Assembly (NCBI GenBank): GCA_964596355.1
Contig: CAZQTD010000002.1
Location: 24,929 to 88,928 of the forward strand
Source: an uncultured Gammaproteobacteria bacterium
GTDB taxonomy: Bacteria; Patescibacteriota; Microgenomatia; UBA10105; UBA927
Direction of reading: 5' to 3'
DNA length: 64,000 bases
Below the pieces are notes generated by a model that worked only from the letters and a program-made list of their open reading frames with translations, ran no database searches and had not been told where the DNA came from. The position numbers were made by a program, and so were the translations under genes. Each line of letters starts with the position of its first letter. The first letter of the stretch is position 1. This document shows, piece after piece, positions 12,625-55,245 of this stretch.

Positions 12625-13182
12625 TTATTTGGAACAGTTATGCCAGGCAGTCAATCCGTCAGTGGAAATAGCAAACGCGGCGGTTCTGATGGATTCCTCT
12701 GCGTTCATTCGCAGATTAACATCTGGGTCCATGCCCATCCGGCTTCGAACGGACCGCCACGTGTCGGGTGAGAATTGATAGAGCCCCACATACGGACCGT
12801 TTACTGCGTTGACTTGCAATCCGGATTCACAGATGGCGATTGTGCGCAACCGTTCGCGGTCTACGCTGTAATGATTAGCGGCGTTGGTAAGCCACTCATC
12901 CAGCTGGGCGTCCATTACCGGAATCGGCGTTGGGATCGGTGTGGCGGTGGATGTAGGTGTAGCTGTCGGTTTTGGTGTCGAACGCGGAGAAGGACGTGGC
13001 TTTGGTTGAGGAGAGAGGGCAGGAGTGGGTGCGCTCGTTGGTGTGGGGGGTAAAGTGGGGGAATACCGCACGATCGCAAGCACCTTGGTCGGCGCTCCGG
13101 CGCGAACCATGGAAACAACGGCTGATGGAGTGGCAAGAGAAACTCCCAGAATAATGCCTATGGTCATTCTATTGATATTCAT
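12625..13182 (-). CDS. Rpf-like transglycosylase-like domain protein with N-terminal anchor and Pro/Thr-rich linker
   Basis: C-terminal CESGLQVNAVNGPYVGLYQFSPDTW matches the transglycosylase-like (Rpf) domain signature. N-terminal TM or signal segment, and a linker PTLPPTPTSAPTPALSPQPKPRPSPRSTPKPTATPTSTATPIPTPIP. Confidence 0.6.
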   Translation of the reverse strand: MNINRMTIGIILGVSLATPSAVVSMVRAGAPTKVLAIVRYSPTLPPTPTSAPTPALSPQPKPRPSPRSTPKPTATPTSTATPIPTPIPVMDAQLDEWLTNAANHYSVDRERLRTIAICESGLQVNAVNGPYVGLYQFSPDTWRSVRSRMGMDPDVNLRMNAEESIRTAAFAISTDGLTAWHNCSK

Positions 13183-13788: not shown

Positions 13789-13865
13789 TGGTACCCCGTG
13801 CCGGATTCGGACCGGCGACCTTCGCCTTGAGAAGGCGACGTCCTAGACCGCTAGACGAACGGGGC
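13789..13865 (-). tRNA. tRNA-Glu (anticodon CUC), CCA encoded
   Basis: The reverse complement folds as a cloverleaf: acceptor GCCCCGU/ACGGGGU (G1-U72 wobble), D-arm, anticodon stem UCGCC/GGCGA with loop UUCUCAA (anticodon CUC), 5-nt variable loop, T-arm GCCGG/CCGGC, and ACCA tail. The T-loop reads UCCGAAU (C at position 55), which is unusual. Confidence 0.75.
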
Positions 13866-23396: not shown

Positions 23397-23408
23397 CATT
23401 TTACACCC

Positions 23409-24119
23409 ATGTATTCGCGTATTGGCATTGTTATCCCTGCATACAATGAGACGAAGAATTTGGAACAGCTTGTGCCGCAGATTCTTTCCCTCTACAAAGG
23501 CATCCGCGTTGTTATAGTAGACGATTCAGAAGAGTCGGAATCAAAAAGACTTGCTCGCGCAATCAAGCGACTAGGCAGAGGAATCCGCATCATTATGCGC
23601 GGGAAAAAATCCGGCAGAGGAGGCGCGGTGCGCGAAGGGATGATACATTTAATGAGCAATCCTCGTATTGACTTCATTATTGAAATGGATGCGGATTTGG
23701 CGCATAAGCCAGAAGAAATTCTCTTGCTTCTAAACAAAAAAGACAGCGCAGATCTTGTTATCGGCTCGCGGTACCTCAACAAAAGCAGCATTATCAGGTG
23801 GCCTCTGCGGCGGCGCATCCAAAGCAAGCTCATTAATGCATTTTTACGCATATGGTTGGGTTTAAACATTCGTGATTTCACCAACGGGTTTCGACTCTAT
23901 AGTAGGCGCGCGGCAGACACACTTCTTAAAGCAAATCTGCGAGAAACAGGCTATATTGCACTCTCTGAAATGGCGTATGTATTAAAGCATACAGGATGCA
24001 CGATCCGCGAAGTTCCCACTACTTTCACCGACAGAACATACGGCAAATCCAATGCGGATACCAAAGAGCTCATTCGCTCTCTTATTGGTGCTATTCGCAC
24101 GAAATTTGTTCACAAATGA
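23409..24119 (+). CDS. GT2 polyprenol-phosphate glycosyltransferase (Dpm1/ArnC/GtrB-like)
   Basis: IVIPAYNE N-terminal motif, VVIVDDSEE and DADLAH (DxD). 236 aa, the length of soluble Dpm1-like enzymes. Confidence 0.75.
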   Translation: MYSRIGIVIPAYNETKNLEQLVPQILSLYKGIRVVIVDDSEESESKRLARAIKRLGRGIRIIMRGKKSGRGGAVREGMIHLMSNPRIDFIIEMDADLAHKPEEILLLLNKKDSADLVIGSRYLNKSSIIRWPLRRRIQSKLINAFLRIWLGLNIRDFTNGFRLYSRRAADTLLKANLRETGYIALSEMAYVLKHTGCTIREVPTTFTDRTYGKSNADTKELIRSLIGAIRTKFVHK

Positions 24120-24123
24120 TCTC

Positions 24124-24152: not shown

Positions 24153-24187
24153 TATTACAATAATGATATGAGGCGATAAGGAGGAGT

Positions 24188-24961
24188 ATGGAAAAGTCTA
24201 GTAGATTGAAGAAACTGCCGTTTATCAGCGCGATAACTGTTCAGGGAATTTTGGTCGCGGCCCTTATCGTCAGTGCGTTTTTCATGGGATCGCTGTGGAC
24301 AAAGGTGAAAATGTTAGAAAAAGGAGGAGCGGCAGGAATAGCAAGAAAACCGGGAGTTCCCGCCACTGGCTCACCGGTTGCGACGTTTACACCCACGCCG
24401 TCGCCCGTTCCGCCAAAATTAGAGAAAGACGACTACGTACTGGGAAGCGACAATGCGCGGATCATCCTTTTTGAGTATTCAGACCTGGAGTGCCCGTTTT
24501 GTAAACGATTCCATCCAACGGCACAGCAGATTCTTAAAGAATACCAAGGAAAAGTAAAATGGGTGTACCGTCACTACCCGCTTTCGTTTCATGCCAACGC
24601 ACAGAAGGAGTCGGAGGCGGCCGAATGCGCGGGCGAGCTTGGCGGGAATACCGCGTTTTGGAAGTATATCGATGCCATTTATGAACGCACGACATCAAAC
24701 GGCACTGGTTTTGCGCTTGAGAAATTGACGCCGCTAGCCGTTGAGTTGGGGCTTAACCAAAAGCAGTTTCAGACGTGTCTTGATAGCGGCAAACATGCGC
24801 AGAGAATTCAGAATCAGATGGCGCAGGGGATAAAAGAAGGCGTCACCGGTACGCCGGGAAACATTCTGTTGGATAGTAAAACCGGGAAGACGACGAGTAT
24901 TCCTGGCGCGGTTCCATTCGAGCAAATTAAACCAGTGATAGATGAAATGTTGCAATCATAA
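24188..24961 (+). CDS. DsbA-like thiol:disulfide oxidoreductase, membrane-anchored
   Basis: N-terminal TM helix, thioredoxin fold with CPFC active site ([14 protein letters not shown]). A Pro/Thr-rich stretch lies between the anchor and the domain. Confidence 0.7.
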
Positions 24962-30643: not shown

Positions 30644-30653
30644 CTCTACATGC

Positions 30654-31790
30654 ATGAAGGTATTTCGATTACTGATCGTGCTTTTGGTGTCTCTTGAGGT
30701 TTGCAGCGGCATATTTTCAGTTGTTGCCCAAAGTGAAATAGAATCAAGAATCAGCGAACTTCAAAAAAAAATTTCGGAGCTTCAAGGTCAGGAAAGAACG
30801 CTGTCAGACAAAATCACGTACTATAATACCCAGATTTCGCTTACCCAGCTGCGGATAGACAGCATTAAGGCTAACATATCAAAGCTTTCAACGGAAATTG
30901 ACGAGCTCAATACGGAAATAGAGCGGCTTGAGGCGTTAAAAACCAGACGGCTGGAACTCGTGCTTCATAGGATTCCGCAAGCGTATAAACGGACCGTTGC
31001 TTCACAGTTTGGCATGGTATTGTTTAGCAAAAATTTTTCTGATTTTCTTTTTCGCGTAAAGTACCTTCTATCCGTTCAAGCGCAAGATTCGTTTTTGTAC
31101 ACACAGCTTCAAAATACACAGGATCACTACAATGAACGAAAGATCCAGCGTGAAAAGAAAAAAGAACAGCACGAAACGCTGAAAAGAGAGCTTGAATTGG
31201 AAACTGCGCAGCTTACCCAGCAGAAAAAAGAAAAGCAGATTCTGCTAGAACAAACCAAAAACAGCGAAGCGATCTATCAACAGCTGTTAGCGCAGGCGCT
31301 CGCTGAGAAACAGGCGCTTGAGCGCGCACTGGTGGATGCCGTTAAAGTGGGGCCGATTAAACAGGGTGATCCGATTGCACTTGTTGGTAATACCGGATAT
31401 CCGGGATGCTCAACTGGTGCGCACCTGCATTTTGAAATTCGAAGAAATAACGGCTGGACTGACCCGGCTGAATTTTTGTCATCCAAAACCGTGATTGATG
31501 AACAGAACGGAGGAAATACGACGCTGGGGCGCGGAAGTTGGCCGTGGCCGCTGGATGATCCCATCAGGCTAACGCAGCATTACGGCAAAACGCCATATTC
31601 TTGGCGGTACGCATATTCAGGCGGCATTCATACGGGGTTTGATATGGTTTCATCAAGCAGCGTCATTCGAGCGCCAAAAGACGGGACGTTATATTCGTCC
31701 AGCCAGACCTGCGGAGGCAGCAGTGTTATAAAAATCAAATATATCGATCATGGTGATGGATTGATAAGCTTTTATCTGCATGTTCAATAA
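30654..31790 (+). CDS. EnvC-like coiled-coil M23 peptidase (murein hydrolase activator/LytM family)
   Basis: Signal peptide, a long coiled-coil (heptad-rich 30-230), and a C-terminal LytM/M23 domain (GNTGYPGCSTGAHLHFEIR). Confidence 0.75.
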   Translation: MKVFRLLIVLLVSLEVCSGIFSVVAQSEIESRISELQKKISELQGQERTLSDKITYYNTQISLTQLRIDSIKANISKLSTEIDELNTEIERLEALKTRRLELVLHRIPQAYKRTVASQFGMVLFSKNFSDFLFRVKYLLSVQAQDSFLYTQLQNTQDHYNERKIQREKKKEQHETLKRELELETAQLTQQKKEKQILLEQTKNSEAIYQQLLAQALAEKQALERALVDAVKVGPIKQGDPIALVGNTGYPGCSTGAHLHFEIRRNNGWTDPAEFLSSKTVIDEQNGGNTTLGRGSWPWPLDDPIRLTQHYGKTPYSWRYAYSGGIHTGFDMVSSSSVIRAPKDGTLYSSSQTCGGSSVIKIKYIDHGDGLISFYLHVQ

Positions 31791-32634
31791 TTTGCATCAT
31801 GTTGCGGTAGGGGTATGCGCAATTGGTATTGCGCTGTCGTTTCCTCTTTCGTTGGTACAAGCAGACGTCGTCATTAATGAGTTTAGTTCTGGCAGTACTT
31901 CGGATTGGATTGAAGTATATAATTCCGGCGACACAGCAGACCTTTCTTTTTATAAGCTGCGAGATTCGGGAACAAATGTCAAAGATTTAGACGGAGAAAT
32001 TGGACCGGGTGCGTTCGTTTCGTTTTCGTTTAGCAACTGGCTTAACAATACCGGAGACACCGTTCGGTTGATGCGCGTATCCGACGGAGGCGAGGAGGAA
32101 GTTGACCATATTACGTATGGAGAAGGCGGCATATGCGCGCCATCGGCAAGTCAGACTATAGGAAGACAGCCGGACGGTAGTGCAGCAATCGTTCGCTTTT
32201 CTTCAGGAAGTCAAAACGCTTCTAATAATTCAAGTACACAGGAGCCTTGTCCGACTCCAAGTCCCACGCCGACGCTTACTCCGATGCCTACATTAACACC
32301 CACCAACACGCCGTCGTCTACGCCGACTCACACTCCGACCAAAACTCCCACGCCCAGTAAAACTCCCACGACCACAAAAACTCCTACTCCGTCGCTCAAA
32401 AAAAGTCCGACCCCAACAGGGGAACAATCCGAGCCGCCAACGCCGGAAGAAGAATCCGGAGAAGTTGAAAGCGCTTTTATCGCATCAGAATCGTCGCCGC
32501 TTGAATCTGAATCAAGAAAAAAAGTTCTTCCGCTTGTTATCTCGCTTCTTTTTGTTTCTGTGGGATCTGCGCTTTTGGCGCTGGTATTTATTTGGAAAAA
32601 GCGGCACGCGATGGTTTCACCAAAAACAGAATGA
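31780..32634 (+). CDS. lamin-tail-domain (LTD) protein with Pro/Thr-rich linker and C-terminal TM anchor
   Basis: VVINEF...DWIEVYN...LRD is the LTD signature. Then PCPTPSPTPTLTPMPTLTPTNTPSSTPTHTPTKTPTPSKTPTTTKTPTPS, an acidic stretch, and a C-terminal hydrophobic helix plus KKRH. Confidence 0.6.
   Translation: MFNNLHHVAVGVCAIGIALSFPLSLVQADVVINEFSSGSTSDWIEVYNSGDTADLSFYKLRDSGTNVKDLDGEIGPGAFVSFSFSNWLNNTGDTVRLMRVSDGGEEEVDHITYGEGGICAPSASQTIGRQPDGSAAIVRFSSGSQNASNNSSTQEPCPTPSPTPTLTPMPTLTPTNTPSSTPTHTPTKTPTPSKTPTTTKTPTPSLKKSPTPTGEQSEPPTPEEESGEVESAFIASESSPLESESRKKVLPLVISLLFVSVGSALLALVFIWKKRHAMVSPKTE
32230..32425 (+). repeat. low-complexity ACNCCNAC(N) codon repeats encoding the PT linker of the LTD protein
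   Basis: Degenerate tandem ACG/ACT/CCC/CCG units seen directly in the sequence. Confidence 0.5.
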
Positions 32635-35160: not shown

Positions 35161-36147
35161 ATGACAATTATAGGGGTTGTGGTTCACCTCTTTGTTCCGC
35201 ACCACTCAAATAACCATCGGTCAAAAGTTCTTCATGTAGAATCGCTTCTCGTCTACGTGTTAGTATTCGCCATCTTAAATCTTGGGGTTCGGATCCTTCA
35301 TAGGACGATGCCTGACGTATTGGGATATGCTACAGATATCCACGTTGAGCAGCTTTTGAGTGAAACCAATGGACTGCGTCAAGGAGCGGGACTTGCTCCA
35401 TTAGCTCTCAATCAGCAACTATCGGCTGCCGCCGCACAAAAGGCCCAGGACATGTTTGCCAAAGGGTATTGGGCGCACAATAGTCCTAGCGGGGCGACTC
35501 CTTGGGACTTCATTTCCCAAGCGGGATACAAATACACCGTAGCAGGAGAAAACCTCGCCAAGAATTTTTCAACGAGCAAAGGCGTGATTGACGCGTGGAT
35601 GGCATCTCCTACGCACAGAGACAATATTTTGAAGCCTGCTTACAGAGAAGTGGGATTCGCCGTGGTCAACGGGATTCTCAATGGAGAAGAAACAACGCTC
35701 GTGGTTCAGATGTTTGGCGCATCCTCAACACCGCTTGCAATTGCGCCGCCAAAACCGGCCGTGCCTGTTGCGGTAAGCCAAAAAGCAGCGGTGACAGAAA
35801 AACCGTTACAGCCAACGAAGGCGCCTGCCAGAGAAGGGGCAACCCCTCTTGTGACCCCGACGGCAGCACCTCTAGCGCCGCCTGTTCTGGCTTATGGCAA
35901 ATCCATAGAGCCAATTTCGAGCGCATTCCTTGGAGTGACCAAGCAGCCCGCGATTAATATCCCTTCGCTTACGCGGGACATTGTTTTTGTGTTTGCCGGG
36001 GTTATTTTGGGGGTTTTGGCGCTTGACGCGTGGATTGTATCGCGCCGCCGCGTCGTTCGGGTTGCAGGACATAATATCGCGCACTTTTTATTTCTTAGCG
36101 CGATGGTCATTGCGGCAAGCATGGTGGGGAGAGGGAGTTTGATATGA
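35161..36147 (+). CDS. CAP/SCP/PR-1-like domain protein with Pro-rich linker and C-terminal TM segments
   Basis: GYWAHNSPSG...GENLA...WMASPTHRDNIL matches CAP (YkwD-like) motifs. Has an N-terminal TM, a linker PAVPVAVSQKAAVTEKPLQPTKAPAREGATPLVTPTAAPLAPP, and two C-terminal TM helices. Confidence 0.7.
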   Translation: MTIIGVVVHLFVPHHSNNHRSKVLHVESLLVYVLVFAILNLGVRILHRTMPDVLGYATDIHVEQLLSETNGLRQGAGLAPLALNQQLSAAAAQKAQDMFAKGYWAHNSPSGATPWDFISQAGYKYTVAGENLAKNFSTSKGVIDAWMASPTHRDNILKPAYREVGFAVVNGILNGEETTLVVQMFGASSTPLAIAPPKPAVPVAVSQKAAVTEKPLQPTKAPAREGATPLVTPTAAPLAPPVLAYGKSIEPISSAFLGVTKQPAINIPSLTRDIVFVFAGVILGVLALDAWIVSRRRVVRVAGHNIAHFLFLSAMVIAASMVGRGSLI

Positions 36148-36396: not shown

Positions 36397-37134
36397 ATGA
36401 AGGGAGTTATTCTTGCAGGCGGACTTGCGACAAGGCTTCGGCCGCTGACACTTGTTACCAACAAACACCTATTGCCCGTTTACCACAAGCCGATGATTTA
36501 TTACCCGCTTGAGGCGATGCACCGCAGCGGCATCAAAGAGGTGCTTCTTACCACATCGCCTGACCACGCGGGTCATTTTGCCAACTTGCTCAAAGCGGGC
36601 GAGGACTTTGATCTTAAGCTCTATTATGCTGTGCAGCAAAATGCCAAAGGCGGCATCGCCCAAGCAATCGCCCTTGCTCAAGAGTTTGCCAAAAACGAGT
36701 GCGTGGTTGTACTTCTTGGCGACAATATATTTACCGTGAACTTGAAGCAATCAATACAAAAAATCGAATCACAAGGCCGCGGCGCAATGGTTTTTGGCGT
36801 TCGTCGCAGCATGGATTCGAAGCAGTATGGTGTCATCGAGGTTGACGCGAACGGAAAAGTTTTGTCTATAGAAGAAAAGCCTGAACACCCCAAGAGCAAC
36901 ATCGTGCAAACGGGCATTTATGTGTATGACAGCAGGGTATTTGACTTTATCCAAAAACTTACGCCGAGCGCGAGAGGTGAGCTTGAAGTAACGGATTTAA
37001 ATAACCTCTACGTACAAGAGGGGTCATTATACTGTGAAATTATCGATTGGTGGGTTGATGCCGGAACGTCGTACGATGAGCTTCTGCGGGCAAACAACGA
37101 AGTGGCACAGATGGTAAGAGAAGGAAAGTTATGA
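36397..37134 (+). CDS. rmlA: glucose-1-phosphate thymidylyltransferase-like sugar nucleotidyltransferase (short RmlA)
   Basis: MKGVILAGGLATRLRPLT...KHLLPV is the RmlA/G1P nucleotidyltransferase signature. 245 aa, so the C-terminal oligomerisation extension is missing. Confidence 0.75.
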   Translation: MKGVILAGGLATRLRPLTLVTNKHLLPVYHKPMIYYPLEAMHRSGIKEVLLTTSPDHAGHFANLLKAGEDFDLKLYYAVQQNAKGGIAQAIALAQEFAKNECVVVLLGDNIFTVNLKQSIQKIESQGRGAMVFGVRRSMDSKQYGVIEVDANGKVLSIEEKPEHPKSNIVQTGIYVYDSRVFDFIQKLTPSARGELEVTDLNNLYVQEGSLYCEIIDWWVDAGTSYDELLRANNEVAQMVREGKL

Positions 37135-37273
37135 TTAGGAAGTAGTCTTGGAAATGCACGTTTTTTGCCTCGCGTGATGAATGCTACTGGATATCATAAC
37201 GGCAACACAAGTCCGAGGTACCATGAAACGTTAAATGCAATGCAGGGCAAAAAGCAAAACGTCACTATCTCAT

Positions 37274-37750
37274 ATGATTGATGGAGTTGCTATAAAAGAA
37301 TTGATTCGCCATCCGGACGAACGGGGATTTTTTGAAGAAATAATCAGGCGCACTGACCCCTTTTTTGCCGAGGGGTTTGGACAGCTGTCGCGGTCTTCCA
37401 TGCATCAGGGTGTTGTAAAAGCTTGGCACGTTCATAAAACGCAGATTGACTGGTGGTATCTTGTGCGGGGAATTATGAAAGTTGCCCTTTACGATACACG
37501 CAAGGAGTCAAAAACATATAAAGAACTGAATGAATTCGTTTTAGGCGAACAGGGAAAGCCTAACCGTGTATTAAAAATTCCTGCTGGGGTCGCTCACGGA
37601 TTGAAGGTGCTTGTGGGGCCTGCTGACCTTGTGTACGTTACCAGTCGTACGTATGCCAAAGACGAAGAGGGGCGCATCGCGTACGATGATCCCGGTATCG
37701 GCTATGATTGGGTGCAGGGAATACCGATTACTAATATACACGTCACATAG
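37274..37750 (+). CDS. rmlC: dTDP-4-dehydrorhamnose 3,5-epimerase
   Basis: Cupin fold with DERGFFEE...GQLSRSSMHQGVVKAWHVH typical of RmlC. Start set at MIDGV. Confidence 0.8.
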   Translation: MIDGVAIKELIRHPDERGFFEEIIRRTDPFFAEGFGQLSRSSMHQGVVKAWHVHKTQIDWWYLVRGIMKVALYDTRKESKTYKELNEFVLGEQGKPNRVLKIPAGVAHGLKVLVGPADLVYVTSRTYAKDEEGRIAYDDPGIGYDWVQGIPITNIHVT

Positions 37751-37814
37751 ATATGAATCATTTAGAGGTTGGAGGTGTGGGTTGAGAATAGTATAGAAGA
37801 TACATAATTTTTTC

Positions 37815-38804
37815 ATGAAACTTCTGGTAACCGGTGGGGCCGGATTCATCGGCTCGAACTTTATTCTGTATTGGATGGACCGTCATCCCGATGATAGCGT
37901 GGTTAATATAGACGCGTTGACGTATGCTGGCAACCTTGACAATTTGGCACCTGTTAACAATAACCCGCGATATCAATTTATTCACGGAGATATCTGTGAC
38001 GTTAATGTTGTGACCAAGGCGCTTGCGGGCGTTGATACGGTCGTTCATTTTGCGGCAGAGAGCCATGTGGATCGGTCAATTGATAAACCGTTGCCGTTTG
38101 TGATGACGAATATTGTGGGTACACACGTTCTGTTGGAGGCAGCGTTGAAGGCAAAGGTTCAGCGATTTCACCATATTTCTACGGATGAAGTCTATGGATC
38201 TCTTGAATTAGGAACATTGGATAGATTTAGTGAACGAACAAAATATAACCCCAGAAGTCCATATTCGGCGAGCAAAGCTGCTTCAGATCATTTAGTAAAC
38301 GCATACTTTCATACGTACGGTTTACCTATTACAATTACGAATTGTTCCAATAATTATGGTCCATTTCAGTTTCCGGAAAAATTCATTCCCCTTACCATTA
38401 CTAATATTCTGGAAGGCAAAAAAGCGCCTCTTTATGGAGACGGTAAACATGTGCGCGATTGGCTTTATGTATTAGATCATTGTCGCGCAATCGAGCTTGT
38501 GTTGACCAAAGGCAAGGTCGGTGAAACATATTGCGTTGGAGGGCTTACCGAAGACGTTGACAACGAGACGGTGATGAAAAAAATTCTACAGATTATGGGC
38601 AAGGATGAGTCGTTTATCGAGCGGGTGAACGACAGGCCGGGTCATGACCGACGGTACGCGATTGACTGGTCAAAAATTCACCGCGAGTTAGGGTGGCAGC
38701 CAGAGCATGATTTTGACACATGGTTAACCAAAACAGTTAAGTGGTACAAAACGCATGAGTCATGGTGGAAAAAAATCAAATCCCGTGAATATGCAAAGCT
38801 ATGA
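37815..38804 (+). CDS. rmlB: dTDP-glucose 4,6-dehydratase
   Basis: MKLLVTGGAGFIGSNF Rossmann motif and YSASKAASD catalytic YxxxK. Confidence 0.9.
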   Translation: MKLLVTGGAGFIGSNFILYWMDRHPDDSVVNIDALTYAGNLDNLAPVNNNPRYQFIHGDICDVNVVTKALAGVDTVVHFAAESHVDRSIDKPLPFVMTNIVGTHVLLEAALKAKVQRFHHISTDEVYGSLELGTLDRFSERTKYNPRSPYSASKAASDHLVNAYFHTYGLPITITNCSNNYGPFQFPEKFIPLTITNILEGKKAPLYGDGKHVRDWLYVLDHCRAIELVLTKGKVGETYCVGGLTEDVDNETVMKKILQIMGKDESFIERVNDRPGHDRRYAIDWSKIHRELGWQPEHDFDTWLTKTVKWYKTHESWWKKIKSREYAKL

Positions 38805-39685
38805 AGATATTAGGAACAGGATTATCAGGGCTTGTCGGTTCGCGCGTTGTTGAACTTCTTTCACCCCCTTGGAGTTTTGAAAACTTGAGTCTTGAAACTG
38901 GTATTGATATTACTGACAAAACGCTCGTGACGCGCTACATTGAGCAATCAGAAAGCCAGTGGGTTTTCCATTTTGCGGCAATTACTGATGTTGACGGATG
39001 TGAACAAGAAAAAGATAGAGGCCAGCAGAGCAGATCGTGGCAGGTCAACGTTGCAGCCACAGAACACATCGTTCAAGCGTGCAAGGAGACCGGAAAGCGC
39101 ATGGTGTATATTTCCACAGATTTTGTTTTTGACGGCACGAAACCGTCATATACCGAAGAAGATATTCCTAATCCTCTGAGCTGGTACGCGCTGACAAAAT
39201 ATGAAGGCGAGAAACGGGTCACTGCCTTGGGCGATCGCGGGCTTATTGTGCGCATCGCCTACCCCTATCGCGCAACAGCTGCCGGCAAGCCTGATTTTGT
39301 CCATAGAATACTTGAAAGATTACAACAGGGCAGTCCGGTGACTGCTCCAAGCGATTCGTTTATTACGCCGACGTTTATCGATGATATTGCCTATGCCTTG
39401 AAAAAACTTATATCGGCACGTTCAAGCGGCATCTATCATGTGGTTGGAGGCGCCGCGACGACTCCTTTTGAGGCGGCGCAAACGATCGCTCGCGTGTTTG
39501 AACTAGACAGTTCGCACATTACATCGATTATGCATGAAGACTATTACAAGAATCGAGCGAGGCGTCCCTTTTACGGCATACTCAAACATGATAAAATAGC
39601 GAAATTCGGTGTCGCTATGTCTACTTTGGAAGACGGGTTGCGAGCGGTACGTGAACAGGTAGGTAAGGCGCGTAAAGACGTATGA
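38801..39685 (+). CDS. rmlD: dTDP-4-dehydrorhamnose reductase
   Basis: MKILGTGLSGLVGSRV start, RmlD-like SDR with YALTKYEGE (YxxxK). 4-nt overlap with rmlB. Confidence 0.85.
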   Translation: MKILGTGLSGLVGSRVVELLSPPWSFENLSLETGIDITDKTLVTRYIEQSESQWVFHFAAITDVDGCEQEKDRGQQSRSWQVNVAATEHIVQACKETGKRMVYISTDFVFDGTKPSYTEEDIPNPLSWYALTKYEGEKRVTALGDRGLIVRIAYPYRATAAGKPDFVHRILERLQQGSPVTAPSDSFITPTFIDDIAYALKKLISARSSGIYHVVGGAATTPFEAAQTIARVFELDSSHITSIMHEDYYKNRARRPFYGILKHDKIAKFGVAMSTLEDGLRAVREQVGKARKDV

Positions 39686-40980
39686 CGATAGCATTTATCG
39701 GCCATGGGTACGTTGGACTTGTTTCTGCCGCTGTATTTGCGGATTTAGGTAATACCGTGTGGGTGGTCGGACGAACGAAGGAGAAAATAGATAAGCTTAA
39801 ACGCGGCATAGCGACGTTTTATGAGCCGGGTCTTTCGGAGTTGGTCAAACGCAACGTTGACGCAGGCAGATTGCTTTTTACGCTGGACTATAAAGACGCG
39901 GTCGTTCCATCCACAATCATTTTTATTTGTGTGGGCACGCCTGCCAGGCGCAATGGCGAGGCAGACCTAACGAGTGTTTTTTCAGCGGCTGAACACATAG
40001 GAAAAAATCTCACGGGTTATAAAGTAGTGGCAACAAAAAGTACCGTGCCGCCGGGAACAAATCGCAAGGTAGCTGCAATTCTTGCAAAACACGCTTCGCG
40101 GGATGCGTTGTTTGACGTTGCATCGGTGCCGGAATTCTTGCGTGAAGGAAGCGCCATAGACGATACGCTTCATCCGGATCGTGTCGTTATTGGCTGTGAT
40201 GCGAAGCGAGCCTGCAAACTGCTTCTTGAACTCCACAAGCCTATTGACGGCAAGACGGTGCTTTGTGCTATAGAGACTGCGGAACTTATCAAATACGCAT
40301 CCAATTCGCTTTTGTCTACAAAAATATCGTTTGCCAACGCCATATCATTTCTTGCGGAAAGGGTTGGAGCAGATGCAGAGCAGGTTTTGGAAGGTGTTGG
40401 ACTGGACAAAAGGCTGGGCAGAAGTTTTCTCTATCCCGGGGTTGGATATGGCGGCAGTTGCTTCCCCAAAGACGTGAAAGCGCTTATCGCTATCGCCAAG
40501 GAGCACGGGTATGATTTTAGCCTTCTTAAGGCGGTTGACGCTATAAACAAGGAGGCTGCCGAACATTTTATAGAGAAAATCTTGAACCACTTTGACGGTA
40601 AACTCGCAGGAAAAACCATCGCGATATGGGGACTATCATTTAAGCCAAATACCGATGACATGCGAGAAGCGCCGTCAATATCAATAATTTCACGTCTTGT
40701 TCGCGAGGGGGCAACTGTTCGCGCCTACGATCCCGCGGCTGTGGAAAACGCGAAGCTCGTGTTGCCCAAAAGCGTCGAATTTACCAGAAGCGCGCAAGAG
40801 GCAGCAACCGGAGCAGACGCGGTTGCTGTCATCACAGAATGGAATGAATTTCGCCAGATTGATCTGGAGAAGCTAGCTAAAAATCTTAAAAGCAGAGTTC
40901 TTTTTGATGGAAGGAACATTTACGATCCCGAGCGTGTAAAAGAGGCGGGTTTTCTGTATTATAGTGTTGGGAGGGGATAA
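39682..40980 (+). CDS. ugd: UDP-glucose 6-dehydrogenase / nucleotide-sugar dehydrogenase
   Basis: IAFIGHGYVGLVSA Rossmann motif and catalytic Cys region GGSCFPKDV. Confidence 0.85.
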   Translation: MTIAFIGHGYVGLVSAAVFADLGNTVWVVGRTKEKIDKLKRGIATFYEPGLSELVKRNVDAGRLLFTLDYKDAVVPSTIIFICVGTPARRNGEADLTSVFSAAEHIGKNLTGYKVVATKSTVPPGTNRKVAAILAKHASRDALFDVASVPEFLREGSAIDDTLHPDRVVIGCDAKRACKLLLELHKPIDGKTVLCAIETAELIKYASNSLLSTKISFANAISFLAERVGADAEQVLEGVGLDKRLGRSFLYPGVGYGGSCFPKDVKALIAIAKEHGYDFSLLKAVDAINKEAAEHFIEKILNHFDGKLAGKTIAIWGLSFKPNTDDMREAPSISIISRLVREGATVRAYDPAAVENAKLVLPKSVEFTRSAQEAATGADAVAVITEWNEFRQIDLEKLAKNLKSRVLFDGRNIYDPERVKEAGFLYYSVGRG

Positions 40981-40983
40981 ATT

Positions 40984-41943
40984 ATGGTTAAGAAAAAAGT
41001 ATTCATTACCGGTATTGCCGGGTTTGTGGGGAGCCATTTGGCGGAATTGCTTCTGCATAAGGGGTTTGAAGTGTATGGACTTGTACGGCCGCGCAGCAAC
41101 ACCGATCACATTGAATCCATCATGAGCAGACTGCGGCTGGTGGACGCCGATCTAATGGACACCCACAGTCTCTATACAACCATCAATAGGATTAAGCCTG
41201 ATTTTATTTTCCATCTGGCTGCACAATCGTTCGTTCCAACATCATGGGTTTCTCCGTCGGTGACGCTGGAGGTCAATGTTGTGGGATCCGCAAACCTCTT
41301 CGAAGCGGTTAAGATGGCAAAAATAGATCCCGTCATCCAGATTGCGTGTTCTTCAGAAGAATACGGTTTGGTTATGCCCGAAGAACTGCCAATAGTGGAA
41401 ACGAACCCCCTGCGGCCGCTTTCTCCGTATGCGGTATCAAAAGTCGCAATGGATTATTTGGGATACCAGTATTACCAATCGTACAAGGTGCGAATTGTGC
41501 GGACTCGCGGGTTTAACCATACCGGTCCAAGGCGTGGAGAAACGTTTGCCGAGTCGAATTTTGCCAAGCAAATTGCGATGATTGAAAAGGGCAAACAAGA
41601 ACCGGTCGTCAGCGTCGGAAATTTGGATGCAAGCCGTGACTATACCGATGTGCGGGATATGGTGCGCGCGTACCTTTTGGCTGTTGAGAAGTGCGACCCG
41701 GGCGACGTTTACAATATCTGTTCAAATAAAACGGTCAAAATTGGCGATATGCTTAACCTTCTTGTATCATATGCAAAGGTGAAGGTGACGGTAAAGACGG
41801 ACCCCGCACGGATGCGTCCCAGCGACGTGCCGATACTTTTGGGAAGCAGCAAGAAATTTTTTGATAAAACCGGTTGGAAGCCAGAGATCCCGTTTGAAAA
41901 AACCATGGAAGATCTTCTTAATTACTGGCGGGCGAGAGTGTGA
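40984..41943 (+). CDS. NAD-dependent nucleotide-sugar epimerase/dehydratase (Gmd/UXS/ArnA-C-terminal-like extended SDR)
   Basis: VFITGIAGFVGSHLAELLL and YAVSKVAMD (YxxxK). Its position directly after ugd suggests it acts on UDP-glucuronate or a related sugar. Confidence 0.7.
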   Translation: MVKKKVFITGIAGFVGSHLAELLLHKGFEVYGLVRPRSNTDHIESIMSRLRLVDADLMDTHSLYTTINRIKPDFIFHLAAQSFVPTSWVSPSVTLEVNVVGSANLFEAVKMAKIDPVIQIACSSEEYGLVMPEELPIVETNPLRPLSPYAVSKVAMDYLGYQYYQSYKVRIVRTRGFNHTGPRRGETFAESNFAKQIAMIEKGKQEPVVSVGNLDASRDYTDVRDMVRAYLLAVEKCDPGDVYNICSNKTVKIGDMLNLLVSYAKVKVTVKTDPARMRPSDVPILLGSSKKFFDKTGWKPEIPFEKTMEDLLNYWRARV

Positions 41944-41950
41944 CGCTGCT

Positions 41951-43063
41951 ATGAATCTGGTCTTCATTCTTCCCACGTATAACGAACGGGAGAATATTGT
42001 TACGCTGCTTGAAGCGCTTAGAAAAGCGACGTCAAAAGTTAAAGGCTATACGATTACGTATCTTATCGTTGATGATAATTCTCCGGATGGCACAAAAGAT
42101 GAAGTGTTGCGGTACAAAAAAACTCACCCTACCGTTCAGGTGGTATCCGGCAAGAAAGAAGGTTTGGGCAAAGCGCTATTGCGGGGAATGAAGTATGCGG
42201 TTCATACGCTTCGTACCGACATTTTGTTTCAAATGGATGCGGACTTATCGCATGATCCCTCTAAAGTGCCGGAATTTTTAGAGCATCTGGCAAAGGGCGC
42301 GGATTTTGTCATCGGAAGCAGATACATTCCGGGAGGGTCTATACCGGACAACTGGGGAGCGCACCGAAAGCTTTTTAGCAGGGCTGGTAATGCGATCGTG
42401 CGGTTTGGGCTCGGATATCCGCATGTGCATGACTGGACAGGAGGATTTAGAGCGTTTCCCAAAAAGTATTATGAATTATTGCATGAAGAAGTTTCTCCGT
42501 ACAGCGGATACGTATTTCAAATAGCATTTTTGCACCGCGCGATTATGAAAGGCGCGCGTGTTGCCGAAGTGCCGTTTAGATTTACGGATAGACGGTTTGG
42601 CAGGTCAAAAATAGCGCCCGCCGAATATATCCGCAATGTGTTGGTATATGTGGCAAATGCCAGAATGATGCAATGCATACATGGCCCCATCGGCAAGATG
42701 CTTGTTGTGGGCGCCATAGGGTTTGTCATCAATACGATTATTCTTGAGGCCGGCGTTGCGCTGGGTTTGGATCCGACGGTTGGAAGCGCGGCAGGAGCAG
42801 AAACAGCGATTATATCGAATTTTATCCTCAACAACACGTGGACGTTTCGGGAGAGAAAAATTATCGGCATAAGATTAATCAGTAAATTCCTGCAATTTAA
42901 CGCGACGTCGTTTGGCGCGATACTCATTCAGACGGCAACAGTGTTTGCGGGCACGCGATTGTTTGGTCACGGCGTGTATCGGTTGTTTTACATGATGGGC
43001 GTGGGAATCGGTTTGGTATGGAATTTTACAATGTACGCAAAGGTCATCTGGAGAAAAAAATGA
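41951..43063 (+). CDS. GT2 polyprenol-phosphate glycosyltransferase fused to C-terminal GtrA-like domain
   Basis: Start refined to MNLVFILPTYNERENI. GT2 core with DDNSPDGT and DADLSHDP, then four C-terminal TM helices resembling the GtrA family (residues 250-370). Confidence 0.75.
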   Translation: MNLVFILPTYNERENIVTLLEALRKATSKVKGYTITYLIVDDNSPDGTKDEVLRYKKTHPTVQVVSGKKEGLGKALLRGMKYAVHTLRTDILFQMDADLSHDPSKVPEFLEHLAKGADFVIGSRYIPGGSIPDNWGAHRKLFSRAGNAIVRFGLGYPHVHDWTGGFRAFPKKYYELLHEEVSPYSGYVFQIAFLHRAIMKGARVAEVPFRFTDRRFGRSKIAPAEYIRNVLVYVANARMMQCIHGPIGKMLVVGAIGFVINTIILEAGVALGLDPTVGSAAGAETAIISNFILNNTWTFRERKIIGIRLISKFLQFNATSFGAILIQTATVFAGTRLFGHGVYRLFYMMGVGIGLVWNFTMYAKVIWRKK

Positions 43064-44609: not shown

Positions 44610-45358
44610 AACAACCGTTTTTGTCCATCGTCATCCCTGCATACAATGAAGAAACGAATATTCGCTTAGGCGCGCTTGATAAGGTGTCCAGGTATCTGGA
44701 GCACCAAACATACAGAAAGGAAGTTATTGTGGTTGATGACGGCTCGACCGATGCGACAGGGGATCTCCTTGACGATTTTGTCCAAACGAATAAAGACTTT
44801 CGCGTTATCCACAAGGCTCACAGTGGAAAAGCCGGCACGGTGATAGAGGGTGTGTTGGCGGCAAAAGGAGAACTGGTGCTGTTTACCGATCTAGATCAGG
44901 CAACGCCGCTTCATGAACTAGAACGTTTGCTGCCGTATTTTGCCAGCGGATATGACATTGTTATCGGTTCAAGGAATGCAAGGCGTGAAGGAGCGCCCGT
45001 TACACGCGTCATAATGGCGAAAGGATTTATGATGCTTCGCGCGCTCTTTCTGGGACTTCGAGGAATTACTGACACGCAGTGCGGATTTAAAGCGTTCCGG
45101 CGGGAAGTAGCAGTGTCAATTGTTCGAAACCTCAAGCTCTACGGACATGGCGGCCAAGCGACCGGTTCGATGGTAACCGCAGGATTTGATATAGAGGTGC
45201 TTTTTGTTGCGAAAAAAAAGAAATACAAAATTAAAGAAGTTCCTGTCGAGTGGCACTATGTGGAAACGAGGAGAGTTAGCCCGCTAAAAGATTCTTTATT
45301 CGGACTTGTGGATATGATAAAAATCCGCGTGAATGCGTGGCGGGGGCTCTATCGGTAG
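44606..45358 (+). CDS. GT2 polyprenol-phosphate glycosyltransferase (Dpm1-like)
   Basis: SIVIPAYNEE, VVDDGSTD and DLDQATP (DxD). 4-nt overlap with the preceding GT-C gene. Confidence 0.8.
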   Translation: MKQPFLSIVIPAYNEETNIRLGALDKVSRYLEHQTYRKEVIVVDDGSTDATGDLLDDFVQTNKDFRVIHKAHSGKAGTVIEGVLAAKGELVLFTDLDQATPLHELERLLPYFASGYDIVIGSRNARREGAPVTRVIMAKGFMMLRALFLGLRGITDTQCGFKAFRREVAVSIVRNLKLYGHGGQATGSMVTAGFDIEVLFVAKKKKYKIKEVPVEWHYVETRRVSPLKDSLFGLVDMIKIRVNAWRGLYR

Positions 45359-55238: not shown

Positions 55239-55245
55239 TCTGATT

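What the first reader, a model, noticed from the sequence alone, without database searches (positions are those of the whole stretch)
12912..13062. Pro/Thr-rich linkers in three secreted or anchored proteins as candidate O-glycosylation substrates
Three extracytoplasmic proteins carry 45-60 aa Pro/Thr(/Ser)-rich linkers: the Rpf-like protein (this span, minus strand), the LTD protein (32230-32425) and the CAP-domain protein (35716-35880). In Actinobacteria such linkers are O-mannosylated by GT39 Pmt enzymes using polyprenol-phosphate-mannose made by Dpm1-like GT2. The same window encodes ArnT/PMT-like GT-C enzymes and several Dpm1-like GT2 genes. That gives a self-consistent hypothesis: protein O-glycosylation of PT linkers.
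Basis: inference. Interest (0 to 1): 0.55.

Follow-up and report, generated by a model that had tools for sequence, protein, structure and literature searches.

The report
Thr-Pro stalks on CPR surface proteins

Summary
The linkers are real at the stated coordinates, but only two of the three are Pro/Thr linkers.

- **Rpf-like transglycosylase (12625-13182, -):** 24 P+T in 40 residues.
- **LTD protein (31780-32634, +):** 29 P+T in 40 residues. Background is about 4.
- **CAP protein:** its linker is Ala/Pro-rich (T 11%), and its orthologues do not keep a PT tract.

The (Thr-Pro)n tract is conserved in 103 of 108 Rpf-like homologues (median 49 aa) and in 29 of 29 LTD orthologues. It is not a DNA tandem repeat. 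In both proteins it lies between the membrane anchor and the folded domain.

The organism is a Gottesmanbacteria-like member of the Microgenomates (CPR), about 47% GC. It is not an actinobacterium.

The window holds eight GT-C-type genes: three PMT_2, two YfhO, two YfhO-related without a Pfam family, and one GT87-like. It also holds four polyprenol-phosphate-sugar-synthase-like GT2 genes. None matches the GT39 family. They sit among rhamnose-synthesis genes, a Wzx flippase and soluble glycosyltransferases, which fits cell-wall glycopolymer synthesis equally well.

The best precedent is streptococcal GtrB plus a YfhO-family enzyme, which glycosylates Ser/Thr-rich disordered regions. GT-C genes are not significantly enriched next to Rpf-like genes in relatives (p = 0.30).

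Verdict: a plausible, unproven hypothesis of modest interest.

The parts
12625..13182 (-). Rpf-like lytic transglycosylase: N-terminal membrane anchor (aa ~6-26), (Thr-Pro)n stalk (aa 37-90), catalytic domain (aa ~93-185)
   Evidence: PF06737 31.9 bits and SLT 26.6 bits. 107 homologues, the named ones from Microgenomates, Levybacteria and Woesebacteria. Invariant C118-E119-S120, W142 and C183.
12913..13074 (-).
   Evidence: 24 P+T in 40 aa. Mixed Thr and Pro codons, and no DNA tandem repeat. A tract is present in 103 of 108 family members, median 49 aa, IQR 43-55.
31780..32634 (+). LTD protein: signal peptide, lamin-tail-like domain, (Thr-Pro)n stalk, acidic Ser/Glu segment, C-terminal TM helix with a basic tail
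   Evidence: PF00932 34.2 bits against a 34.3 cut-off, E 3.6e-8. The orthologue lies directly downstream of the M23 peptidase gene in 28 CPR loci, always with a PT tract and a C-terminal TM helix.
32221..32448 (+). PT tract of the LTD protein (76 aa)
   Evidence: 29 P+T in 40 aa. Only an 18-bp x 2.4 DNA repeat, at 32341-32384. Family tract is 36-80 aa, median 56; T 31%, P 27%, S 10%.
35161..36147 (+). CAP-domain protein with an N-terminal TM helix, an Ala/Pro-rich linker (35716-35880) and C-terminal TM helices. Its linker is not a conserved PT linker.
   Evidence: PF00188 77.2 bits. Linker composition A 24%, P 22%, T 11%. Orthologue linkers lack PT tracts.
24350..24415 (+). Short Pro/Thr-containing segment (aa 55-76) after the TM anchor of a DsbA-like protein (24188-24961). 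It is not conserved in orthologues.
   Evidence: 13 P+T in 40 aa. Pfam Thioredoxin_4/DSBA. Orthologue linkers are Ala/Pro/Gln/Gly-rich.
41861..43063 (+). GT2 fused to a GtrA-type membrane domain; candidate polyprenol-phosphate-sugar synthase
   Evidence: PF00535 93.5 bits plus GtrA_DPMS_TM 57.6 bits. Sub-threshold NCBIfam hits to AglJ, Dol-P-hexose transferase, PgfS and ArnC. Orthologues of about 500 bits in syntenic loci.
43068..44609 (+). PMT_2-type GT-C with a G-D42-E43-G-R-D motif after TM1
   Evidence: PF13231 35.9 bits. D42 invariant and E43 nearly invariant in 26 sequences. Orthologues named 'GT39 family', 'ArnT family' or 'ArnT-like' by their sources. No PDB sequence match.
44606..45358 (+). 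Small GT2; candidate polyprenol-phosphate-sugar synthase
   Evidence: PF00535 98.5 bits. Best NCBIfam hit is PgfS at 73.8 bits, against a cut-off of 500.
45367..46506 (+). GT87/DUF2029-like GT-C (11 predicted TM helices)
   Evidence: PF09594 30.8 bits against a cut-off of 25. TM prediction.
46526..48028 (+). Second PMT_2-type GT-C, from a different family; T-D-E-A motif after TM1
   Evidence: PF13231 35.9 bits. Unrelated to 43068-44609 by phmmer. No PDB sequence match.
48035..51219 (+). Two paralogous multi-TM proteins (48035-49570 and 49567-51219) with a DD motif after TM1. No Pfam family; remotely related to YfhO.
   Evidence: No Pfam or NCBIfam family. Paralogy at 115 bits. hhalign against the YfhO profile gives probability 95%, E 3.7e-8. 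The AF2 model was unusable, pLDDT 37.9.
51188..51925 (+). Small GT2; candidate polyprenol-phosphate-sugar synthase
   Evidence: PF00535 77.2 bits. Sub-threshold NCBIfam hits to PgfS, Dol-P-hexose transferase, AglJ and ArnC.
51927..53372 (+). Wzx-type polysaccharide flippase
   Evidence: Polysacc_synt_3 168.2 bits.
56015..58342 (+). YfhO-family GT-C (775 aa) with a C-terminal beta-rich extracytoplasmic domain
   Evidence: PF09586 74.9 bits. 2028 homologues at E<1e-10, the named ones from Gottesmanbacteria and Woesebacteria. Invariant D64 in the first loop. AF2 pLDDT 80.8. Best Foldseek matches are AftD, ArnT and STT3/PglB.
59342..61633 (+). Second YfhO-family GT-C (763 aa)
   Evidence: PF09586 54.5 bits. 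Paralogue of 56015-58342 at 306 bits.
62574..63842 (-). Third PMT_2-type GT-C (422 aa), paralogue of 43068-44609
   Evidence: PF13231 38.4 bits. 78-82 bits to 43068-44609.
23409..24119 (+). Small GT2 (PpgS/ArnC/AglJ-like) downstream of a DegT-family aminotransferase (22221-23396)
   Evidence: PF00535 89.9 bits. NCBIfam PpgS 69.3 bits and ArnC 63.2 bits, both sub-threshold.
36397..40980 (+). dTDP-rhamnose genes rmlA, rmlC, rmlB and rmlD, plus UDP-glucose 6-dehydrogenase; the sugar-nucleotide supply for the glycan locus
   Evidence: ORFs. rmlC and rmlD NCBIfam hits. Three UDPG_MGDP_dh domains. RmlA and RmlB orthologues conserved in synteny.

Best explanation
**What it is.** The Rpf-like transglycosylase and the LTD protein are membrane-tethered extracytoplasmic proteins of a Gottesmanbacteria-like CPR bacterium. 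In each, a (Thr-Pro)n tract of about 50-75 residues joins the membrane anchor to the folded domain.

**Shown.**
- The architecture.
- Its conservation in composition and length across more than 100 relatives.
- That the tract is kept at the protein level rather than by DNA repeat slippage.

**Inferred, stalk role.** The tract is an extended, disordered stalk that holds the domain away from the membrane and into the wall.

**Inferred, glycosylation (my commitment, roughly 45%).** The Thr residues are O-glycosylated outside the cytoplasm in three steps.
1. A small GT2 loads a sugar onto polyprenol phosphate. Candidates are 41861-43063, 44606-45358, 51188-51925 and 23409-24119.
2. The lipid-linked sugar is flipped by the fused GtrA domain or by Wzx.
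3. A GT-C enzyme transfers the sugar to the membrane-proximal stalk, stiffening it and protecting it from proteases.

The most likely transferases are the YfhO-family proteins (56015-58342 and 59342-61633) or a PMT_2-type protein. The working analogy is streptococcal GtrB+PgtC2 and PgfS+PgfM1, not actinobacterial GT39 Pmt. The sugar is unknown.
For: **The tracts are real and specific.**
- They are extreme in composition.
- They are present in 103 of 108 Rpf-like homologues (median 49 aa, IQR 43-55; P 29.5%, T 27.3%, S 9.8%) and in 29 of 29 LTD-family members.
- Among 914 ORFs from 41 syntenic CPR loci, only the LTD orthologue carries such a tract. It is therefore a family-specific trait, not genome-wide bias.
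- Codons are mixed and there is no DNA tandem repeat in the Rpf-like linker.
- The CAP and DsbA linkers of the same lineage are Ala/Pro-rich. The preference for hydroxyl residues is therefore selective (inference).

**The enzymes are present.**
- Eight GT-C-type proteins have an acidic motif after TM1.
- YfhO 56015-58342 has a confident GT-C fold, with invariant D64 in the first loop.
- Four GT2s resemble polyprenol-phosphate-sugar synthases.
- YfhO and PMT_2 orthologues lie on the same contigs as LTD-PT orthologues. Contig lengths 75960, 81704, 80144, 81485, 65157 and 86865 recur across.

**There is experimental precedent.**
- YfhO-family PgtC2 and PgfM1, with GtrB and PgfS, O-glycosylate Ser/Thr-rich disordered regions of membrane-associated extracytoplasmic proteins, and the glycans protect against proteolysis (PMC12041528).
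- Actinobacterial Pmt glycosylates Rpf2 and PT-type linkers (references in PMC11727336).
- Cell-wall enzymes are glycoproteins in S. coelicolor (PMC6593405).

**Gene adjacency, anecdotal only.** GT-C genes abut Rpf-like genes on the same strand in L050 (54-bp gap) and L092 (26-bp gap). A YfhO gene is convergent in L053 and 1.3 kb away in L045.
Against: - There is no direct evidence of any glycan.
- The GT-C genes sit in a locus with rmlABCD, Ugd, Wzx, GT2 and GT4 genes, typical of wall-polysaccharide synthesis and decoration. The first-described YfhO function is teichoic-acid glycosylation (PMC5836110, PMC8035078).
- There is no statistical gene-neighbourhood link. GT-C density is 2.1 per 100 kb within 2 kb of Rpf-like genes, against 0.9-2.7 further out. 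Immediate neighbours are 3/118 GT-C against 7/489 other ORFs, p = 0.30.
- The adjacent GT-C genes belong to different families.
- Similarity to PgfM2 and PgfS is far below the NCBIfam cut-offs (15.6 against 1500 bits; 73.8 against 500 bits).
- Thr-Pro tracts can act as spacers without glycans.
Confidence: 0.45

Rival explanations
1. The Thr-Pro tracts are bare spacers. They are extended, flexible-but-stiff stalks of set length that place the transglycosylase and the LTD domain at the right depth in the wall, and they carry no glycan. The GT-C/GT2 locus builds and decorates a rhamnose-containing wall glycopolymer or a teichoic-acid-like polymer, and has nothing to do with these proteins.
For: - Tract length is narrowly distributed (IQR 43-55 aa), as expected for a ruler.
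- The tract always lies between anchor and domain.
- The GT-C genes are embedded with rmlABCD, Ugd, Wzx, GT2 and GT4 genes.
- GT-A + flippase + GT-C systems decorate teichoic acids and rhamnose polysaccharides (PMC8035078, PMC5836110).
- GT-C genes are not enriched near Rpf-like genes.
Against: - Other linkers in the same lineage use Ala/Pro rather than Thr/Pro. A spacer role alone does not explain the strong preference for Thr (27-31%).
- In the monoderm bacteria cited here where such tracts were examined, they were glycosylated (PMC12041528, PMC11727336).
- Eight GT-C enzymes is many for a single polymer.
Confidence: 0.4
2. It is an actinobacterial-type O-mannosylation system, in which a GT39 Pmt uses polyprenol-phosphate-mannose made by a Dpm1/Ppm1-like GT2 to mannosylate the PT linkers.
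For: - PMT_2 hits lie above the Pfam cut-off for three proteins.
- A D-E pair follows TM1 in 43068-44609 and 46526-48028, echoing the GT39 'DE motif' (PMC11727336).
- NCBI labels some orthologues 'glycosyltransferase family 39 protein'.
- Some Microgenomates GT-Cs outside this window reach PF02366 just above its cut-off, at 24-30 bits against 22.7.
Against: - The organism is CPR, not an actinobacterium.
- No window protein matches PF02366 or PMT_4TMC at E<0.01.
- The profile of the 43068-44609 family finds no PMT1/2/4 or ArnT chain in the PDB by sequence.
- No GDP-mannose or mannose-specific gene was identified in the window.
- GT2 hits are not specific to Ppm1/Dpm1.
- The GT-C families that do hit PF02366 in relatives have no detectable homologue among the window's GT-Cs.
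Confidence: 0.07
3. The tracts are functionless low-complexity sequence produced by replication slippage or compositional drift.
For: One short 18-bp x 2.4 DNA repeat lies inside the LTD linker.
Against: - There is no DNA repeat in the Rpf-like linker, and all four Thr and all four Pro codons are used.
- The tract is retained in 103 of 108 and 29 of 29 family members at 34-72% domain identity, with constrained length.
- It is absent from the other ~890 ORFs of related loci.
Confidence: 0.03

Closest known systems
[quoted passage not shown]
   Same: - The cell-envelope logic is monoderm-type.
- Acceptors are hydroxyl-rich disordered tracts next to folded domains of membrane-associated extracytoplasmic proteins, many of them wall-active.
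- The enzyme classes are the same as in this window: a GT-A polyprenol-phosphate-sugar synthase and a YfhO-family GT-C with an acidic residue in an outer loop.
   Different: - The tracts here are strict Thr-Pro repeats rather than poly-Ser/Thr.
- They lie between anchor and domain rather than at C-termini.
- The window's YfhO proteins are not orthologues of PgtC2, PgfM1 or PgfM2 (15.6 bits against an NCBIfam cut-off of 1500).
- The phylum is different (CPR).
- Nothing has been shown experimentally.
Actinobacterial protein O-mannosylation: GT39 Pmt + Ppm1. Substrates include C. glutamicum Rpf2, Cellulomonas cellulase linkers and S. coelicolor wall enzymes (PMC11727336, PMC6593405)
   Same: - Pro/Thr-rich linkers of secreted proteins serve as acceptors.
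- One known substrate has an Rpf motif.
- The donor is a lipid-linked sugar used outside the cytoplasm.
- Two of the PMT_2-type proteins have a D-E pair after TM1.
   Different: - There is no GT39 (PF02366/PMT_4TMC) match in the window.
- The organism is not an actinobacterium.
- The sugar is unknown.
- The PMT_2 proteins are about 420-510 aa, with no detectable sequence link to solved PMTs.
[quoted passage not shown]
   Same: GT2 + GtrA or Wzx flippase + GT-C gene sets, placed beside rhamnose-synthesis genes, exactly as in 36397-63842.
   Different: In those systems the acceptors are glycopolymers, not proteins. Which acceptor applies here is the open question. CPR wall polymers are uncharacterised.
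ArnC/ArnT aminoarabinose transfer to lipid A (GT83)
   Same: - PMT_2-type GT-C proteins, named 'ArnT-like' by their sources.
- A DegT-family aminotransferase plus an ArnC-like GT2 pair at 22221-24119.
- A UDP-glucose dehydrogenase in the window.
   Different: - The bacterium is monoderm-type and no lipid A genes were seen in the window.
- All NCBIfam hits to ArnB, ArnC and ArnT are far below cut-off.
- There is no sequence match to solved ArnT.

Membership tests
Rpf / transglycosylase-like domain (PF06737) | Pfam match above the gathering score | tested here: met
   31.9 bits against a cut-off of 27; also SLT at 26.6 bits against 21.3.
Rpf / transglycosylase-like domain (PF06737) | Conserved catalytic Glu and a conserved Cys pair. 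These features are from my own knowledge of Rpf domains. | tested here: met
   C118, E119, S120 and C183 are invariant in 36 aligned homologues.
Lamin tail domain (PF00932) | Pfam match above the gathering score | tested here: inconclusive
   34.2 bits against a cut-off of 34.3, E 3.6e-8.
CAP superfamily (PF00188) | Pfam match above the gathering score | tested here: met
   77.2 bits against a cut-off of 21.1.
GT39 protein O-mannosyltransferase (Pmt) | Sequence membership: PF02366 (PMT), with PMT_4TMC | tested here: not met
   No PF02366 or PMT_4TMC match at E<0.01 for any of the eight GT-C-type proteins.
GT39 protein O-mannosyltransferase (Pmt) | Detectable sequence relation to solved PMT1/PMT2/Pmt4 | tested here: not met
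   phmmer and profile hmmsearch against all PDB chains found no PMT hit. The Foldseek search of the YfhO model ranks Pmt4 and Pmt1-2 well below AftD, ArnT and STT3.
GT39 protein O-mannosyltransferase (Pmt) | Conserved D-E motif in the first extracytoplasmic loop (PMC11727336) | tested here: met
   43068-44609 has D42-E43 (D invariant, E nearly invariant). 46526-48028 has T-D-E-A. Acidic loop-1 motifs are shared by many GT-C families, so this is not specific to GT39.
GT39 protein O-mannosyltransferase (Pmt) | Transfers mannose from polyprenol-phosphate-mannose to protein Ser/Thr | not testable with these tools
   This needs biochemistry or glycoproteomics.
PMT_2 / ArnT-like GT-C (PF13231) | Pfam match above the gathering score | tested here: met
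   35.9, 35.9 and 38.4 bits against a cut-off of 26.1 for 43068-44609, 46526-48028 and 62574-63842. The family does not define the acceptor.
YfhO-family GT-C (PF09586) | Pfam match above the gathering score | tested here: met
   74.9 and 54.5 bits against a cut-off of 28.5.
YfhO-family GT-C (PF09586) | GT-C fold with a conserved acidic residue in an outer loop near TM1 | tested here: met
   AF2 pLDDT 80.8, pTM 0.83. Foldseek matches AftD, ArnT and STT3/PglB at E 1e-6 to 1e-4. D64 is invariant in 33 sequences. The loop itself is modelled with low confidence.
Streptococcal protein O-glycosyltransferases PgtC2 / PgfM1 / PgfM2 and synthase PgfS | Orthology (NCBIfam equivalog cut-offs) | tested here: not met
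   PgfM2 15.6 bits against 1500; PgfS 73.8 bits against 500. The similarity is at family level only.
Streptococcal protein O-glycosyltransferases PgtC2 / PgfM1 / PgfM2 and synthase PgfS | Acceptors are Ser/Thr-rich disordered regions of extracytoplasmic membrane-associated proteins | tested here: inconclusive
   Candidate acceptors of the right kind exist, but no modification can be shown.
Polyprenol-phosphate-sugar synthase GT2 (GtrB / CsbB / ArnC / Dpm1-like) | GT2 catalytic domain, either small in size or carrying a C-terminal membrane/GtrA segment | tested here: met
   41861-43063 has GT2 plus GtrA_DPMS_TM. 23409-24119, 44606-45358 and 51188-51925 are 236-250 aa, with best hits to PpgS, ArnC, PgfS, AglJ and Dol-P-hexose transferases.
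Polyprenol-phosphate-sugar synthase GT2 (GtrB / CsbB / ArnC / Dpm1-like) | Specific identity as a mannose (Dpm1/Ppm1) synthase | tested here: not met
   No NCBIfam equivalog passes its cut-off, and the hits are spread over synthases for different sugars.

The most novel reading that the evidence does not exclude
Microgenomates (CPR) bacteria run a general extracytoplasmic protein O-glycosylation system. In it, YfhO-type or PMT_2-type GT-C enzymes decorate conserved (Thr-Pro)n stalks of membrane-tethered wall-active proteins, such as the Rpf-like transglycosylase and the FtsEX/M23-linked LTD protein. This would be the first protein glycosylation pathway described in the Candidate Phyla Radiation. 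The papers found here describe CPR glycosylation as unexplored (PMC11623550).
Probability: 0.4. Interest if true: 0.55.

Novelty: new member of a known kind. Interest (0 to 1): 0.35.

Why it matters
CPR bacteria are ultrasmall, mostly uncultured, and live attached to other cells, so their surface is central to their biology. Almost nothing is known about its chemistry.

If the Thr-Pro stalks are glycosylated, the idea of O-glycosylated disordered stalks on wall-active enzymes would extend from Actinobacteria and Firmicutes to CPR. It would also help explain why these tiny genomes keep so many GT-C enzymes (about 1% of ORFs in the loci examined), and it would give defined targets for metaproteomics.

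If they are not glycosylated, the stalks are ordinary spacers and the GT-C locus is a wall-polysaccharide locus. That locus is still of interest, but it is a different finding.

Tried and rejected
- **Exact look-up of the Rpf-like protein.** It is not on record. The source contig was traced through the YfhO and PMT_2 proteins instead: an NCBI contig of 124,944 bp and Logan SRR10095374.
- **PDB sequence searches.** Searches with two PMT_2 proteins, with the YfhO and PMT_2 family profiles, and with two GT-Cs from related loci found no relevant match.
- **AF2 model of 49567-51219.** Built from a two-sequence alignment, it reached pLDDT 37.9, so no fold search was run. hhalign replaced it and shows a remote YfhO relation. 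hhalign against the PMT_2 profile was not convincing, at probability 22%.
- **Guilt by association.** Six neighbourhoods of Rpf-like homologues and 80 metagenome loci were annotated with local HMMs and Pfam. There is no distance enrichment and no neighbour enrichment. My GT-C detection may miss divergent families. Several multi-TM neighbours have no Pfam family: L061 3012-4289, L068 6538-8310, L106 10788-12002 and L128 8983-10623.
- **Slippage origin of the tracts.** Rejected on Tandem Repeats Finder output and codon usage.
- **Actinobacterial origin.** Rejected on GC content and homologue names.
- **Literature on protein glycosylation in CPR.** Only a bioinformatic prediction for Saccharibacteria pilins was found.
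Checking whether PT linkers persist in relatives lacking GT-C genes could not be run, because whole genomes cannot be fetched with these tools. PT-poor homologues exist, such as P0097 on a 614,743-bp contig, but only 20 kb around that gene could be read; it holds no GT-C.
Full report
**1. What is in the sequence**

The span 12912-13062 lies inside a minus-strand ORF, 12625-13182 (185 aa). It encodes three parts:
- an N-terminal hydrophobic anchor;
- a Pro/Thr tract at aa 37-90, i.e. 12913-13074;
- a C-terminal domain matching the Rpf-type transglycosylase family (PF06737, 31.9 bits against a cut-off of 27) and SLT.

The second protein, 31780-32634 (+), has a signal peptide and a lamin-tail-like domain (34.2 bits, a hair under the 34.3 cut-off). 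These are followed by a 76-residue Thr-Pro tract (32221-32448), an acidic Ser/Glu segment, and a C-terminal TM helix with a basic tail.

The third protein, 35161-36147 (+), is a CAP-domain protein (77.2 bits) flanked by TM helices.

Across 62 ORFs (20,192 aa), Pro is 4.4% and Thr is 5.7%. Two of the three linkers are therefore extreme. The CAP linker is Ala/Pro-rich (A 24%, P 22%, T 11%, S 5%).

**2. Whose genome this is**

GC content is 45-50%.
- The named homologues of the Rpf-like protein come from the Microgenomates group, Ca. Levybacteria and Ca. Woesebacteria.
- A scan of species-representative genomes with the neighbouring M23 peptidase returned 41 CPR loci, the best at 71% identity. 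Most are titled Ca. Gottesmanbacteria or Patescibacteria.
- YfhO and PMT_2 proteins identical to the window's are on record on an NCBI contig of 124,944 bp. The YfhO protein was also located on a contig from Logan run SRR10095374.

The bacterium is a Gottesmanbacteria-like member of the Candidate Phyla Radiation, not an actinobacterium.

**3. Are the tracts conserved?**

Yes, for the two true PT linkers.
- **Rpf-like family.** 103 of 108 members carry a tract of at least 15 residues between the TM anchor and the catalytic domain. Median length is 49 aa (IQR 43-55). Composition is P 29.5%, T 27.3%, S 9.8%.
- **LTD family.** In the 41 syntenic loci, 28 of 914 ORFs have a strong PT window. All 28 are the gene directly downstream of the M23 peptidase, which is the LTD orthologue, and each has a C-terminal TM helix. 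Tract median is 56 aa, with T 31% and P 27%.
- **Other linkers in the same lineage.** CAP orthologues have Ala/Pro/Val/Glu/Gln-rich linkers with no PT tract. DsbA orthologues likewise lack one.
- **DNA level.** The Rpf-like linker is not a DNA tandem repeat, and the LTD linker holds only an 18-bp x 2.4 repeat. All four Thr and all four Pro codons are used.

The tracts are therefore maintained by selection on the protein. The preference for Thr is specific to two families, whereas other linkers in the lineage use Ala/Pro.

**4. The enzymes**

The stretch from about 41.9 kb to the window's end holds eight multi-TM proteins of GT-C type.

| Gene(s) | Type | Score or status |
|---|---|---|
| 43068-44609, 46526-48028, 62574-63842 (-) | PMT_2 | 35.9-38.4 bits against 26.1 |
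| 56015-58342, 59342-61633 | YfhO | 74.9 and 54.5 bits against 28.5 |
| 45367-46506 | GT87-like | 30.8 bits against 25 |
| 48035-49570, 49567-51219 | paralogous pair, no Pfam family | remote YfhO relation |

- They fall into five unrelated sequence families. Seven of the eight show an acidic motif just after TM1: GDEGRD, TDEA, SDDGE, HDDT, MPDV, TDPV and WDQID. No such motif was identified in the GT87-like protein.
- The no-family pair is remotely related to YfhO by profile-profile comparison (probability 95%, E 3.7e-8).
- The YfhO protein 56015-58342 gave a confident model (pLDDT 80.8). Its best solved neighbours are AftD, ArnT and STT3/PglB, with Pmt4 and Pmt1-2 much weaker. D64 in the first loop is invariant.
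- Four small GT2s resemble polyprenol-phosphate-sugar synthases, but only at family level. They are 23409-24119, 41861-43063 (fused to a GtrA domain), 44606-45358 and 51188-51925. Their hits are to PgfS, ArnC, PpgS, AglJ and Dol-P-hexose transferases, all below the curated cut-offs.
- No window protein matches the GT39 family PF02366 at E<0.01. Neither single sequences nor family profiles find any solved PMT or ArnT by sequence.
- NCBI's 'glycosyltransferase family 39 protein' label on orthologues appears to be generic naming for this superfamily. That reading is my inference.

**5. Genomic context of the enzymes**

The GT-C genes are interleaved with rmlA, rmlC, rmlB and rmlD, UDP-glucose dehydrogenase, a Wzx flippase, four further GT2s (one overlooked by my ORF picker, at 55189-56025) and a GT4.

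This is the layout of the multi-component transmembrane glycosylation systems that build and decorate wall teichoic acids and rhamnose polysaccharides in Gram-positive bacteria (PMC8035078; PMC5836110).

The string DsbA ... FtsE-FtsX-M23-LTD ... CAP-rmlA-rmlB ... GT2-GtrA is conserved across Gottesmanbacteria. Enzymes and candidate substrates thus co-occur. In a clade where both appear near-universal, that says little.

**6. A test of association**

I looked for GT-C genes beside Rpf-like genes in relatives. Sources were six database neighbourhoods and 80 metagenome loci, annotated with local HMMs and Pfam.

There are suggestive cases:
- a PMT_2 gene 54 bp downstream on the same strand (L050);
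- a PF02366/PMT_2-hitting gene 26 bp upstream on the same strand (L092);
- a convergent YfhO gene 64 bp away (L053);
- a YfhO gene 1.3 kb away (L045).

Over 70 non-redundant loci, however, the numbers show no enrichment:
- GT-C density is 2.1 per 100 kb within 2 kb, against 0.9-2.7 per 100 kb at 2-10 kb.
- Immediate neighbours are GT-C in 3 of 118 cases, against 7 of 489 for other ORFs (odds ratio 1.8, p = 0.30).
- The adjacent GT-Cs belong to different families.

The association test is negative or underpowered.

**7. Comparison with what is known**

The closest experimental precedent is not GT39. In streptococci, GtrB (a Glc-P-undecaprenol synthase) and the YfhO-family GT-C PgtC2 O-glycosylate Ser/Thr-rich disordered regions. 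In S. mutans, PgfS and PgfM1 do the same. The substrates are extracytoplasmic, membrane-associated proteins such as PrsA, PBP1a, LytR and PknB, and the glycans protect those regions from proteolysis (PMC12041528).

The window has the same enzyme classes and acceptors of the same general kind. Orthology to PgfM2 and PgfS fails, at 15.6 against 1500 bits and 73.8 against 500 bits.

The actinobacterial analogy is real as an analogy:
- C. glutamicum Rpf2 is a Pmt-dependent glycoprotein (references in PMC11727336).
- Cellulomonas linkers are heavily mannosylated.
- S. coelicolor wall enzymes are glycoproteins (PMC6593405).

Membership in GT39 was tested and not met.

I found no paper on protein glycosylation in CPR beyond a software prediction for Saccharibacteria pilins. 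Those authors call the field unexplored (PMC11623550).

**8. Verdict**

What is shown is their role as membrane-proximal stalks of set length. That they are O-glycosylated by a polyprenol-phosphate-sugar/GT-C route is a reasonable inference by analogy, at roughly 45%.

The near-equal rival is that the stalks are bare and the GT-C locus serves a wall glycopolymer. The specific GT39/mannose/Actinobacteria framing is not supported.

PT-linker glycosylation is well known elsewhere, so this is a new member of a known kind. Interest is modest (0.35). It would rise if metaproteomics or reconstitution showed the first CPR glycoproteins.

Noticed in passing
window 29020-32634; loci L001-L033: FtsE, FtsX, a coiled-coil M23 peptidase and the LTD/Thr-Pro/TM protein form a conserved gene string in 28 Gottesmanbacteria-like (Microgenomates) loci. 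This suggests the LTD protein belongs to the FtsEX-controlled cell-wall hydrolase module.
   Followed up: partly
window 48035-49570 and 49567-51219: Two paralogous proteins with about 9-12 TM helices and a DD motif after TM1 have no Pfam or NCBIfam family. They show only a remote profile-level link to YfhO (hhalign probability 95%). They are a candidate undescribed GT-C subfamily. The AF2 model from two sequences failed (pLDDT 37.9).
   Followed up: partly
window 43068-63842: Eight GT-C-type genes lie within 21 kb of a small CPR genome. In related loci about 1% of ORFs (10 of 879) are GT-C. This is a high load for such reduced genomes.
   Followed up: partly
window 55189-56025 (+): A 278-aa GT2 ORF (weak SunS-like and MftF-like hits) lies between 54261-55238 and the YfhO gene. 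It is called as a gene on the matching Logan contig L044 but was missed by a longest-ORF picker.
   Followed up: yes
L050 10001-12165; L092 287-2444; L053 9833-12772; L045 6264-10510: In four relatives a GT-C gene (PMT_2, PF02366-hitting or YfhO) lies directly beside the Thr-Pro Rpf-like gene. Two of these are on the same strand with gaps of 26-54 bp. The pattern is not statistically enriched overall, but these are the best loci for an experimental test.
   Followed up: yes
L053 666-4885; L057 12107-13789; L092 287-1885: A further Microgenomates GT-C family has a (S/W/R)DE or EEE motif after TM1. It reaches PF02366 (PMT) just above its cut-off, at 24-30 bits. It has no detectable homologue among the window's GT-Cs.
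   Followed up: partly
L128 8983-10623: A protein with 10 TM helices and C-terminal TPR repeats overlaps the end of an Rpf-like gene. It has no GT-C Pfam match, but its architecture recalls TPR-bearing GT-C enzymes.
   Followed up: no
L001, L003, L007, L011, L012 and other 'binchicken' MAG records: These records are titled 'uncultured Gammaproteobacteria bacterium'. They share 60-71% identity and full synteny with Gottesmanbacteria loci, so the titles appear to be mislabelled.
   Followed up: no
window 22221-24961: A DegT/RfbH-like aminotransferase and a PpgS/ArnC-like small GT2 sit directly upstream of a membrane-anchored DsbA-like protein. With the UDP-glucose dehydrogenase at 39682-40980, this hints at a lipid-linked amino-sugar pathway.
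   Followed up: partly
window 13186-13668 and 13789-13865: A TspO/MBR family gene (159 bits) lies divergent from the Rpf-like gene. The window's only tRNA (Glu, CTC) is on the minus strand just downstream.
   Followed up: no
P0097, P0098, P0099 (L047 10001-10513): A few Rpf-like homologues on contigs of 615-647 kb have Ser/Thr-containing but Pro-poor linkers. They are natural contrasts for a co-variation test with GT-C content. The 20 kb around P0097 holds no GT-C.
   Followed up: partly
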